A stretch of DNA of 64,000 nucleotides from the NCBI RefSeq assembly GCF_017348835.2, contig NZ_CP071375.1; one strand, written 5' to 3'. How positions within the stretch are numbered: the stretch's first letter is position 1; each line of letters begins with the position of its first letter. This DNA is from Escherichia coli. GTDB lineage: Bacteria > Pseudomonadota > Gammaproteobacteria > Enterobacterales > Enterobacteriaceae. A program made the position numbers. Of the stretch, positions 29,701 through 32,700 are shown piece by piece.

Positions 29701-32700
29701 TCAAATAATGCAATCTTATCATGGAGGAAAGCAAGATCTTATTAGTGTGGTATTAAGTAAAATTTAGTAATTTTATCCAGTGTAGTGGATTTGTTGCATG
29801 GATGGAGTTGGTAAAAAGTGGTGTGGCTGGCAATCCAGGCCGCGTCACAGAAATGGACAATGCCGCTGAGAGACTGGCGAATGGCATACAGGCACCAGAA
29901 AAATTTCAGACATGACATAATGCCCATGCCAGAAGTTCTTTTTGCACCTCGCCTGTATTTATAGATAAATATAGAGTGAATGAATGAGATATGAAAGACA
30001 TTACCCTTCCCCCCCCGACGTCCGCGTCCTGTCTGACAGGGGCCATATCTGTAAATACTGAAGCTGTATTATCTCCCATGCAACACACTTCAGCCTTACA
30101 TGTAAGAGATTTTGCTTCCCTGTGCTCACAGAACCTCAAAGCTAATGTATTGCTAAATAGTGATGACCACGAAGTACCTATACATCAGAAAAATCCTGCT
30201 GCAATAATGCAAAATATCGACTCTAACATCAAACAGATGGCAACAGACTGGGGGATGTCGATTGAGGAGGTTGAGGTTATTATAGGGCGAGAGAAAGGCA
30301 TTGTGGAACCCTCCTGCGGAGTTACCGCTAATGCTATTATGAAACTATTTCTGGACAAGGATGGCTTCAGTTACTGCTTTGAAAATGAACAGACACTATC
30401 GCTCGAGCAGCTTCAGGAGCGCCTGTCCTGTATGCCTGAATGTAAGAGCTTTGTATTACGTGTTAATGATGGTGCGCTTGGTCATGCTTACATTGTCGAT
30501 ATTCCCAAAGGAGAAAACTCTTGTCGTCCTGCATTCTTGTATCAGTCAGATTTAGGAGAGGGCGTCACCAGAAAGTTAAGATTTGAGGACTGGATGACGC
30601 ATAAAGCATTGACTCCGATTTTGCTGGATGATATTTGTAATTACTTCTCCTGCATGTCTCAAAATAAGACAGATTTGGAGCAGATTGCAACGTTATTTGA
30701 TATTGATGGAAATGTTAAAATGTTACGAAAGGAAAATATTCAATATCAAAAGCATGACAATTTTAGTTTCCAGTTGTTTGAGTATGACACCGATAATATT
30801 GAAAAAAACATTGAGATAATAAAATCACTATGTAGTTAGCTTTTGTTAAAACTGCAATTATTTGTAAACATAATAATAAGTATTATGACGTTAAAATTTA
30901 ACCATACGGTAAAATGATTCAGGAAAACCGGTTCAGCATAGCCTAGGCTGAACTTTTGAGGATATCAACGAACGGAATTTTTGAACATTTATGAGTAGAT
31001 CGTTGTTGAAGGGCTTCAATGAGCATGTCAAGTTCATCAACTGCTGGTCTACGATTACGACGGTTTGATTTACCAATCAAAGCAAGTTTAAGTAGATATG
31101 GACGAGCACTTTTCGCCGGGTTTGATGTGTAATTAATTCCGTATATAGGTTTGGCTGCATCCAGAACACTGCCAAGATAACTAACATCGTGACTGACTGT
31201 TGCTGGACCTGCACCAGCGTTGTTTCTCAGCCTGCAATGTTCAATTACGTCATTTTCTGTCAGTTCAGATAGTTTGATCGCGGAGATGTCACTATCCATA
31301 AGCAGTTCTAGCACATATCTTTTAGTACGGTCTGCTTTACCTCCGGCATTTGGTCATTTAAATATTTGTGTAGTAAGTCACGGACTGTAAGTCCGTCAAC
31401 AGCATTTGATGATGAAATGCCATATAGATCTAATACCATCACTTTCTGTGTGCCCCATGTTTTAGCATGAGCATGAACGCGGCGGCTATCTCACGGGTGA
31501 TCATCCCTTTGGCATACTGAAAAGTATCGGGTGTTACTGAACCGTGTTGATACATCAACTGCACTGGATATTGAGTGGCCGATAATACCGACGTTATAAC
31601 CTATAAATGCCAATCAGGCTGAATGTTGAAAGGATAGAATGAACAGCCCGACACACAAAAAACGGAGTCCGGCTCCGGTTTTTGTGTTGCCATATAAGGC
31701 AGATGTTTGTTACAGCTATTTAAGTCTGGAGTTCAAATTAAAATAGGGAGTTTTGTTATGCCATTAACCTCAGATATTGGATCACGTTCATTTAATCTTG
31801 GGCTGGAGGTTTTTCGTGCCCGAATTGCAGCCAATGGGCGCGGAGATATTACAGTAGGTGGTGAAACTGTCAGTATTGTGTATGATGCTACTAATGGGCG
31901 CTTTTCATCCAGTGGCGGTAATGACGGATTGCTTTCTGAGTTATTGATTTTGGGATTTAATAATGGTCCTCGAGCCCTTAGTGAGAGAATGCTAAGTATG
32001 CTTTCGGACTCAGGTGAAGCACAATCGCAAGAGAGTATTCAGGACAAAATATCTCAATGTAAGTTTCCTGTTAGTTCAGGAAATTTCCAGTGCCCGCCAG
32101 AGTCTATTCAGTGTCCAATTACACTAGAGAGACCCGAAGAAGGAGTGTTTGTCAAAAATTCAGATAGTTCAGCAGTATGCACTTTATTTGATGTTGATGC
32201 ACTTTCTCGCGTGGTTAATGACGGTTCAGTTCACCCTCTGACCGAGCTCCAATAACCCCATCAATGATTGTTAAACCAGAAGAGTGTAAATATGACCCTG
32301 CAAGGGGAAGCTTTATTATAAAAGATAGTTAAGATGTTTCAAATGAAACAATATTAACTTCCGATAATTTATATAATAACACCACAGGCATTCGGGGCCT
32401 GTGGTTGGTAAAACAATATAATACGCGAGTTATTTTTCATGAGCTGGAGAGAAAACAATCAAGGTAAGTAGTATTATTTCACAAAATACCGGGCACTTTC
32501 TGGTGCCGCATCGTTCAGAGCTTCGGTGTATAATGAATGAAATACGTAGTAACCCTGTAAAATTTCTGGAAGAGCATTTAATTCTTAATACACAGCGCTA
32601 TGCCCATCATGATGAGACATCTTTAATTACAGTTAATATTACAAGAGAGGATGGCTTGTTAAGACTAAAAGAAACGGAATATGATATGGCTGGTAGTGAT

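What the first reader, a model, noticed from the sequence alone, without database searches (positions are those of the whole stretch)
30943..31314. Unassigned 123-aa ORF on the opposite strand between cif and the nleG-like gene
The ORF is clean and sits between two effector genes with its 5' end facing the second repeat copy. It may be the remnant of a recombinase or transposase that mobilised the cassette, or another cargo gene.
Basis: seen in the sequence. Interest (0 to 1): 0.28.

Follow-up and report, generated by a model that had tools for sequence, protein, structure and literature searches.

The report
Dead phage integrase fragment beside cif
The 123-codon open frame is the middle of a broken phage integrase gene that has lost its start, its catalytic half and its reading frame; it is an ordinary scar of recombination between prophages that travels with the cif effector gene.

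Summary
The ORF exists as described (30943-31314, minus strand, GTG start, 123 aa). It is not a gene. It is codons 95-214 of a 365-codon tyrosine integrase of the phage mEp460 type, plus three foreign codons and a stop.

The dead gene spans window 30955-31475. That equals nt 121-642 of the 1,098-nt int gene, at 96.6% DNA identity. It lacks the first 40 codons. A 1-nt deletion at 31353/31354 shifts the frame. It ends at K214, eight residues before the first catalytic arginine, so R222, H306, R309, H332 and Y342 are all missing.

In all four loci I inspected, the intact relatives lie beside dusA with their 3' end facing a post-tail-fibre effector locus. That is the geometry seen here next to cif.

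About 300 complete E. coli genomes and phage cdtI share the same junctions. Further decay occurs in some of them: an extra frameshift, a larger deletion, an IS2-fragment insertion, and complete loss.

Variants private to the remnants are 14 nonsynonymous to 7 synonymous. Intact genes show 5 to 34.

RefSeq already annotates the locus as a partial, frameshifted pseudogene. The guesses of a clean ORF, a transposase, a cargo gene and a cassette mobiliser are not supported. Interest is low.

The parts
30955..31475 (-). int' : dead fragment of an mEp460/dusA-type tyrosine integrase gene, equal to nt 121-642 (codons 41-214) of a 1,098-nt gene
   Evidence: blastn against the mEp460 int gene gives 96.55% identity over 522 columns with 1 gap. 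PGAP annotates the identical DNA as frameshifted, with N- and C-terminus missing. Coordinates were mapped base by base.
30943..31314 (-). The reported 123-aa ORF: int codons 95-214 (GTG = Val95), then 3 foreign codons (SSA) and a TAG stop
   Evidence: It matches PHROG 11968 (118 aa, E=2e-80), PHROG 22184 and PHROG 1 'integrase' (E=6e-9).
31353..31354 (-). Frameshift: a 1-nt deletion falls between these two bases (intact GACCCAAAT, here GACCAAAT; int nt 243). It creates the stop just upstream of the ORF's frame.
   Evidence: The deletion is shared by the window, two dog EPEC strains and phage cdtI.
30954..30955 (.). 3' deletion junction. Integrase homology ends after ...GATATCCTCAAA (K214). The AT-rich spacer downstream of cif begins here.
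   Evidence: Alignment and junction sequences. In one search, all integrase-only hits start exactly at query position 396, which is window 30955.
31475..31476 (.). 5' deletion junction. Integrase homology starts at int nt 121, so codons 1-40 and the start codon are absent.
30840..30954 (+). 115-nt AT-rich spacer (30% GC) downstream of cif. It ends in the palindrome GTTCAGCATAGCCTAGGCTGAAC followed by TTTT (30935-30961), which straddles the junction.
   Evidence: Sequence; GC content and junction. The scan did not call it a terminator (only 4 T).
31519..31599 (+). tfa' : the last 26 codons and stop of a lambdoid tail-fibre assembly gene. It is preceded by 43 nt of unassigned filler (31476-31518).
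   Evidence: PGAP annotation. The translation [25 protein letters not shown] resembles a Tfa fragment from another strain. A 60-nt match lies downstream of stf in mEp460. It matches tfa genes in about 3,900 genomes.
31658..31712 (.). Second copy of the ~55-nt repeat (bidirectional terminator hairpin plus GATGTTTGTTA), just upstream of the nleG-like gene
28795..28849 (.). First copy of the same repeat, just upstream of nleH. It is also the left boundary of the nleH-cif block in the O121 locus.
28886..29767 (+). nleH (T3SS effector kinase), part of the linked block
   Evidence: PGAP annotation mapped from L004; Pfam OspG_kinase.
29991..30839 (+). cif (T3SS effector). Its 3' flank is fused to int'.
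   Evidence: The junction is conserved in about 300 genomes.
31758..32332 (+). nleG-like (DUF1076) gene, frameshifted in this window. It is the first gene of the second effector block.
   Evidence: PGAP annotation in PE164. It has a 1-nt indel relative to the intact copy.

Best explanation
The ORF is a non-functional piece of a pseudogene. It is the surviving middle (codons 41-214, of which the ORF is 95-214) of the integrase gene of a lambdoid phage of the mEp460 type. The intact relatives of that gene lie next to the host dusA gene.

The fragment has no start codon. It carries a frameshift. It lacks the whole catalytic domain. It can therefore neither be made as an integrase nor recombine DNA.

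Inferred history. In dusA-type phages the integrase gene sits directly after the post-tail-fibre effector locus, with its 3' end facing that locus. An ancestral phage of this type most likely carried nleH-cif there. Deletions or illegitimate recombination then removed the int 3' half on the cif side. They also joined int nt 121 to the tfa-terminator-effector end (nleG-like ... espJ - attR) of a phage that uses the lambda attachment site. The result is two effector loci stacked in one prophage, with int' and tfa' as the scar between them.

Since then the block tail fibre-nleH-cif-int'-tfa' has moved between prophages as one unit, and int' has decayed neutrally.

Shown: the identity of the fragment, its truncations, the frameshift, the loss of catalytic residues, the shared junctions, the neutral substitution pattern, and the dusA location of the intact relatives. 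Inferred: the order and mechanism of the rearrangements, and the absence of expression.
For: Identity of the fragment:
- The repaired translation hits annotated integrases of mEp460, phiSTEC1575-Stx2k, 1720a-02 and others at 89% over 172 aa in one piece.
- DNA identity to mEp460 int nt 121-642 is 96.55% with one 1-nt gap.
- The ORF equals Int residues 95-214, 116/122 identical, and matches PHROG 1 'integrase'.

Loss of function:
- In the intact protein, Pfam Phage_integrase covers residues 189-346.
- Alignment to XerA (5hxy) places the catalytic R222, H306, R309, H332 and Y342. All lie beyond K214, where homology ends.
- No promoter-like site lies upstream of the ORF on its strand within 30700-31800. 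A terminator hairpin lies upstream at 31677-31663.
- There is no Shine-Dalgarno sequence at a proper distance. GGAGG lies about 25 nt upstream of the GTG.

Pseudogene status:
- PGAP annotates it as frameshifted and missing both termini. Some genomes label it 'integrase' or 'site-specific integrase'.

Neutral decay:
- Variants private to the remnants are 14 nonsynonymous to 7 synonymous. Variants among 5 intact genes are 5 to 34. Fisher p=3.5e-5. Random changes would be 76% nonsynonymous.
- Independent further damage: +1 nt in phage cdtI; deletion down to 259 nt in O121; a 286-nt IS2-fragment insertion 9 nt upstream of the GTG; complete IS-associated loss in E2348/69.

Origin:
- Intact copies are head-to-head with dusA, with dinI and nleG effector genes at their 3' side, in 4 of 4 loci inspected. 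The DusA-associated integrase family is described in PMC4482086.
- The resident prophage has its own unrelated lambda-type int/xis next to ybhC. It shares 23% identity with mEp460 Int, over the catalytic domain only.
- The cif/int' junction is identical in about 300 genomes. The block 27165-31582 is shared with phage cdtI, and its right boundary lies inside tfa'.
- Degraded int genes and stacked effector loci are documented in E. coli prophage clusters (PMC8112680).
Against: - Expression was not measured. Absence of a consensus promoter or SD does not prove silence.
- Gene callers do report the ORF (P0005, 70 member sequences; PHROG 11968), but that reflects only its openness.
- The substitution test uses 5 intact and 5 remnant sequences with simple counting and no phylogenetic correction.
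- No locus with nleH-cif next to an intact dusA-type int was found. The ancestral arrangement and the sequence of events therefore remain inference.
- The dusA adjacency of intact copies was inspected in only 4 of roughly 600 genomes.
Confidence: 0.93

Rival explanations
1. The 123-aa ORF is a functional stand-alone gene. It would be a truncated integrase core-binding fragment kept because it binds DNA, for example to interfere with integration or excision of dusA-type phages, or to regulate neighbouring effector genes.
For: - The frame is open in most of the ~285 near-identical copies.
- It corresponds to the region just N-terminal of the catalytic domain, which binds core-type DNA in tyrosine recombinases (established knowledge).
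- Gene callers and PHROGs list it.
Against: - Its start is an internal Val codon with no SD at a proper distance and no promoter-like site upstream.
- Remnant-private variants are 14 nonsynonymous to 7 synonymous, against 5 to 34 in intact genes.
- The frame is broken again in cdtI. Its start is deleted in O121. It is wholly deleted in E2348/69.
- The near-identity among copies reflects recent spread of the whole block, not constraint.
Confidence: 0.03
2. It is the remnant of a recombinase or transposase dedicated to moving the nleH-cif cassette itself.
For: - The remnant is tightly linked to cif: about 300 genomes share the junction.
- The block is bounded by a ~55-nt direct repeat.
Against: - The gene is 93-97% identical in DNA to complete 365-aa integrases. 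In all 4 loci inspected these sit at the chromosomal dusA junction of whole prophages. This fits the published family (PMC4482086).
- The flanking repeat is a terminator hairpin that follows tail-fibre or tfa genes. It is not an att-like or IS-end sequence.
- No transposase family matches.
Confidence: 0.03
3. Alternative origin, same nature. A dusA-type phage integrated into, or in tandem with, the att-lambda prophage (prophage-in-prophage). Recombination between the two sets of late genes and small deletions then removed everything except its tail-fibre/effector end and int'.
For: - Prophage-in-prophage integration at effector loci, and degraded int genes in such clusters, are documented in STEC/EPEC (PMC8112680).
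- The int 5' end, which is the att side in dusA-type phages, faces the second effector block. This is the order expected for such an insertion.
Against: - No dusA-like att sequence survives at the junction, because int nt 121 is joined through 43 nt of filler to tfa'.
- No genome with the undeleted intermediate was found.
- The data do not separate this route from simple illegitimate recombination between two phage genomes.
Confidence: 0.3

Closest known systems
Integrase of Enterobacteria phage mEp460 (AFM76059.1, 365 aa) and its E. coli prophage relatives next to dusA (e.g. WP_000332269.1 in O157:H7)
   Same: 96.6% DNA identity over 521 nt. The ORF equals residues 95-214 with 116/122 identical. 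Its orientation relative to a post-tail-fibre effector locus is the same.
   Different: The window copy lacks codons 1-40 and 215-365, carries a frameshift, and lies in a prophage at the lambda attachment site (ybhC/ybhB-bioA) rather than at dusA.
orf25/orf26 of phage cdtI (AB285204; BAF63358/BAF63359, 'hypothetical proteins')
   Same: It is the same remnant, with the same two junctions and the same 1-nt deletion, directly after nleH-like and cif. The collinear block is 27165-31582 at 93.4% identity.
   Different: cdtI has an additional 1-nt insertion (int nt 563) that splits the frame again. It has ATG instead of GTG at codon 95. To the right it continues into cdtABC-dinI-int instead of terminator-nleG-like...espJ.
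DusA-associated integrases (DAI family; Farrugia et al. 2015, PMC4482086)
   Same: The intact close relatives of the remnant sit at the 5' end of dusA in E. coli, as that family is defined.
   Different: The remnant itself is not at dusA and cannot be active. I did not test membership of mEp460 Int in the published DAI phylogeny or the 21-bp att consensus.
Degraded integrase genes within stacked effector loci of STEC/EPEC prophage clusters (Nakamura et al. 2021, PMC8112680)
   Same: It is a dead int gene lying between two T3SS effector clusters at the end of a lambda-like prophage.
   Different: That study does not mention cif or dusA. Here no second prophage body or att site remains, only a 521-nt scar.
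Resident lambda-type Int/Xis of this prophage (window 19191-20457, minus strand)
   Same: Both belong to the tyrosine recombinase superfamily.
   Different: They share only 23% identity over 140 aa of the catalytic domain. The remnant is therefore not a duplicate of the prophage's own integrase.

Membership tests
Tyrosine recombinase / phage integrase (Pfam PF00589) | Catalytic domain carrying the Arg...His-x-x-Arg...His...Tyr residues | tested here: not met
   In the intact relative these are R222, H306, R309, H332 and Y342, and PF00589 covers residues 189-346. Window homology ends at K214. Pfam finds no PF00589 match in the ORF.
Tyrosine recombinase / phage integrase (Pfam PF00589) | Sequence descent from an integrase gene (N-terminal / core-binding region) | tested here: met
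   95% identity to mEp460 Int residues 95-214, E=3e-85. PHROG 1 'integrase' E=6e-9. Pfam Int_N is only sub-threshold, E=0.071.
Tyrosine recombinase / phage integrase (Pfam PF00589) | Complete, uninterrupted reading frame with its own start | tested here: not met
   Codons 1-40 are absent, there is a 1-nt deletion at int nt 243, and the 3' end is truncated at nt 642. PGAP calls it a pseudogene.
DusA-associated integrases (PMC4482086) | Integrase gene located at the 5' end of dusA | tested here: not met
   The window copy lies between cif and an nleG-like gene in a prophage flanked by ybhC and ybhB/bioA. Its intact relatives (93-97% DNA identity) do lie next to dusA in 4 of 4 loci inspected.
DusA-associated integrases (PMC4482086) | 21-bp consensus attL/attR sequence and placement in the published DAI phylogeny | not tested
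   I did not search the att consensus or the reference DAI sequences. Any att site next to int' was deleted at the 5' junction.
Transposase / insertion sequence | Match to a transposase family; terminal inverted repeats | tested here: not met
   No transposase family matches in Pfam, NCBIfam or PHROGs. No inverted repeats were found in 26000-35500.
Type III secretion effector (cargo gene) | Match to a known effector family | tested here: not met
   The only matches are to integrases and their fragments. Neighbouring genes do match effector families: CIF, NleG and the OspG/NleH kinase.
Exchangeable effector locus of lambda-like prophages (context, not the ORF itself) | Effector genes after the tail-fibre genes, next to the prophage end | tested here: met
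   The order is tail fibre - nleH - cif - int' - tfa' - nleG-like - 2 hypothetical genes - espJ - ybhB. The concept is described in PMC3530523 and PMC8112680.

The most novel reading that the evidence does not exclude
The fragment is nevertheless translated from its internal GTG or ATG. The product would be a 118-123-aa core-binding-domain stub that binds the attachment-site DNA of dusA-type phages. It would hinder their integration or excision, giving the cif prophage a form of inter-phage interference. Alternatively, the 521-bp patch at 96% identity could serve as a homology arm that lets the cif block recombine with resident dusA prophages.
Probability: 0.03. Interest if true: 0.45.

Novelty: already known. 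Interest (0 to 1): 0.08.

Why it matters
It matters little in itself. It is a pseudogene that RefSeq pipelines already flag, in some genomes explicitly as a partial integrase.

Three modest points come out of it:
- Annotation: 'hypothetical protein' here, and orf25/orf26 of phage cdtI, can be renamed as a dusA-type integrase remnant.
- History of the cif phage: the scar suggests that nleH-cif once sat at the effector locus of a dusA-integrating phage. It also suggests that the present prophage carries two effector loci fused end to end.
- A practical marker: the invariant cif/int' junction identifies this lineage of cif-carrying prophages.

Tried and rejected
- Pfam and NCBIfam on the ORF and the two neighbouring short frames gave only a sub-threshold Int_N hit.
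- Rfam over 28000-35000 gave nothing above threshold. The only near hit was a partial IS009 match (29.9 bits against a gathering score of 117) over the tfa' fragment.
- I first modelled the scar as a lambda-style tandem lysogen, in which the int 3' end faces att. I dropped that model when intact relatives turned out to have their 5' end facing dusA and their 3' end facing the effector locus.
- I suspected that database proteins of 216 and 281-282 aa (P0001-P0003) were intermediates with an intact 5' end joined to the cif junction. They are not. P0002 ends ...ILKFS, which is a contig-end partial of an intact gene. P0001 and P0003 are other frameshifted forms.
- I looked for cif loci with a different or intact neighbour using a junction-spanning query. 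None was found except the IS-truncated E2348/69 locus.
- The 'empty-site' test, asking whether the right-hand effector block occurs without nleH-cif-int', was inconclusive. 291 genomes carry the right-hand block against 245-248 with the whole region, but IS insertions such as the one in L001 can account for the difference.
- The original description of the cif locus (Loukiadis et al. 2008; PMID recalled from memory) is not in the held library. I therefore could not check whether the remnant was described there.

Full report
**Observation**

To its left is cif (29991-30839; Pfam CIF, E=3.6e-19). To its right is an NleG-family gene (Pfam T3SS_NleG, E=1.3e-31). It has a 28-nt core, extendable to about 55 nt at 84% identity, at 28795-28822 and 31658-31685. 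It is a G+C-rich hairpin followed by a run of T on both strands, which is a terminator-type element. The second copy lies on the 5' side of the ORF.

**What the ORF is**

- On its own the ORF gives only a sub-threshold Pfam hit (Int_N, E=0.071) and no NCBIfam hit.
- Three-frame translation of the minus strand shows that the ORF's frame stays open upstream of its GTG (…PNAGGKADRTKRYV|LELL…). A second frame further upstream reads …LTVRDLLHKYLND….
- I joined the two frames and searched with the result. It matches annotated integrases of phage mEp460, phiSTEC1575-Stx2k, 1720a-02, Lys8385Vzw and others at 89% identity over 172 aa in a single piece. It matches phage cdtI at 94% in three pieces. 'Site-specific integrase' proteins also turn up in the large protein database and on plasmids.
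- At the DNA level, window 31475→30955 aligns with nt 121-642 of the 1,098-nt mEp460 int gene at 96.55% identity with one 1-nt gap.
- Base-by-base mapping gives these details:
  - The gap is a deletion in a C-run (intact GACCCAAAT, here GACCAAAT; int nt 243; between window 31353 and 31354).
  - The ORF's GTG is the internal Val95 codon.
  - The last integrase-derived codon is K214, ending at window 30955.
  - The final SSA-stop is encoded by unrelated DNA beyond the junction.
- The ORF is 116/122 identical to Int residues 95-214.

**Why it cannot be a working integrase**

In the intact 365-aa protein, the Pfam Phage_integrase domain covers residues 189-346. Alignment to the solved XerA recombinase identifies the catalytic residues as R222, H306, R309, H332 and Y342. 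All lie beyond K214. The first 40 codons, including the start, are also missing.

PGAP annotates the identical DNA in other genomes as a pseudogene, 'frameshifted; incomplete; missing N-terminus and C-terminus'. In some genomes the label is 'integrase' or 'site-specific integrase'.

**Is the leftover frame used?**

- No sigma-70-like site lies upstream of the ORF on its own strand within 30700-31800.
- The hairpin at 31677-31663 would stop minus-strand transcription coming from the right.
- There is no Shine-Dalgarno sequence at a usable distance from the GTG.
- I compared nt 121-642 in five intact genes and five remnants:

| Variant class | Synonymous | Nonsynonymous |
|---|---|---|
| Among 5 intact genes | 34 | 5 |
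| Private to remnants | 7 | 14 |

  Random changes would be 76% nonsynonymous, and Fisher's test gives p=3.5e-5. The sample is small and the counting is simple. Unsampled intact diversity would bias the test against this result, not towards it.
- The remnant has been damaged again several times, independently:
  - an extra 1-nt insertion in phage cdtI, which splits the frame;
  - a deletion leaving only int nt 384-642 in an O121 strain, which removes the ORF's start;
  - a 286-nt IS2-fragment insertion 9 nt upstream of the GTG in O177 and other assemblies;
  - complete loss, together with the cif 3' end, tfa' and the nleG-like gene, in E2348/69.
- Expression itself was not measured.

**Where it came from**

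A search of 5,426 complete E. coli genomes with the 521-nt remnant finds two populations. About 285 genomes have a ≥99% identical 521-nt copy annotated as a pseudogene. About 600 have a 522-nt match at 93-97% inside an intact 'tyrosine-type recombinase/integrase'.

All four intact loci I inspected have the same layout: tail genes, effector genes (three nleG genes in O157:H7), dinI, int, then dusA. The int 5' end is head-to-head with dusA. This corresponds to the published family of DusA-associated integrases, which includes Escherichia members (PMC4482086). In phage mEp460 the virion-map order is the same: side tail fibre, a 60-nt tfa remnant, dinI, int.

In this phage type, therefore, int lies directly behind the post-tail-fibre effector locus with its 3' end towards it. 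That is the geometry of cif(+) followed by int'(−) in the window.

The prophage in the window has its own, unrelated lambda-type int and xis at the opposite end next to ybhC (window about 19191-20457). That Int shares 23% identity with mEp460 Int, over the catalytic domain only. The prophage's right end abuts ybhB-bioA, the lambda attachment region.

**Linkage with cif**

A query spanning the cif/int' junction finds the complete junction at ≥99% identity in about 300 genomes. Every other hit starts exactly at the junction base and lies in an intact integrase. The window, two dog EPEC strains and phage cdtI share both junctions and the frameshift, so a single ancestral event produced the scar.

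The window and phage cdtI are collinear from the tail fibre to position 31582, inside the tfa' fragment. Beyond that point cdtI continues into cdtABC-dinI-int, whereas the window continues into terminator-nleG-like-…-espJ-attR. In the O121 strain, the left boundary of the nleH-cif block falls in the ~55-nt terminator repeat.

The block tail fibre-nleH-cif-int'-tfa' thus behaves as one exchangeable unit, bounded by sequences common to many lambdoid phages. The tfa 3' end alone matches about 3,900 genomes.

**Most likely history (inferred)**

1. nleH-cif sat in the effector locus of a dusA-type phage, next to its int.
2. One deletion or illegitimate join removed dinI and the int 3' half on the cif side.
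3. Another joined int nt 121, through 43 nt of unassigned filler, to the tfa-terminator-effector end of a phage that uses the lambda site.
4. The hybrid carries two effector loci in tandem, with int' and tfa' as the scar between them.

A prophage-in-prophage or tandem insertion followed by deletions, as documented for STEC/EPEC effector loci (PMC8112680), would give the same end product. My data cannot separate the two routes. I found no intermediate.

**Comparison with the known, and verdict**

The ORF descends from a tyrosine-recombinase gene, but it fails the defining features of a functional member: it has no catalytic domain and no complete frame. It is not a transposase, an effector or another cargo gene. 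Its closest named relatives are the mEp460 integrase and the two 'hypothetical' ORFs 25 and 26 of phage cdtI, which are the same scar.

The idea that it mobilised the cassette is unsupported, because the intact relatives are whole-phage integrases found at dusA.

The finding is ordinary and essentially already annotated. Its small added value is the specific identification as a dusA-type integrase, and what that implies for how the cif prophage acquired two effector loci.

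Noticed in passing
window 28795-28849 and 31658-31712: A ~55-nt element (bidirectional terminator hairpin AAAACCGGAGTCCGGCTCCGGTTTTTGT plus ...GATGTTTGTTA) occurs twice at 84% identity. 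Each copy lies immediately upstream of an effector gene (nleH; nleG-like). In an O121 strain it marks the left boundary of the nleH-cif block. It may act as a homology patch for exchanging effector cassettes.
   Followed up: partly
window 31476-31599: The last 26 codons of a tail-fibre assembly gene (31519-31599, + strand) survive as a fragment. 43 nt of unassigned filler (31476-31518) precede it. Rfam IS009 gives a sub-threshold partial hit at 31474-31559 (29.9 bits against a gathering score of 117).
   Followed up: partly
window 31758-32332 and 33231-33883: The nleG-like (DUF1076) gene and espJ each carry a 1-nt indel relative to intact copies in a dog EPEC strain. PGAP calls both frameshifted in the matching strain PE164. 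Of the effector genes checked here, these two are broken, while nleH and cif are annotated as intact.
   Followed up: yes
window 21094-22350: The window lacks 6 kb that strain PE164 has (kil, cIII, the repressor region and others). The deletion junction is at 22349/22350, right next to an IS3-family element (transposase at about 21094-22307). The prophage has also lost nearly all head, tail and lysis genes, so it is a cryptic remnant.
   Followed up: partly
window 19191-20457 (minus strand): The prophage's own lambda-type integrase and excisionase lie next to ybhC. They are annotated as intact in the matching strain. This Int is only 23% identical to the mEp460-type Int, over the catalytic domain.
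   Followed up: partly
window 30935-30961: The palindrome GTTCAGCATAGCCTAGGCTGAAC followed by TTTT sits exactly at the junction between the cif spacer and int'. It could act as a weak cif terminator. It supplies the ORF's last three codons and its stop.
   Followed up: no
window 27235-28509: The tail-fibre gene contains a long Ala/Ser/Glu-rich repeat region and collagen-like Gly-X-Y repeats. It is 59% GC, against about 40% for the effector genes that follow.
   Followed up: no
L011 (E. coli O121 WL1277), whole locus: At the same ybhB-side prophage end, a differently stacked effector locus reads nleB2 - nleC' - tfa' - nleH - cif - int'(259 nt) - nleG-like - nleA. The nleH-cif-int' block therefore sits in different effector contexts in different strains.
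   Followed up: partly
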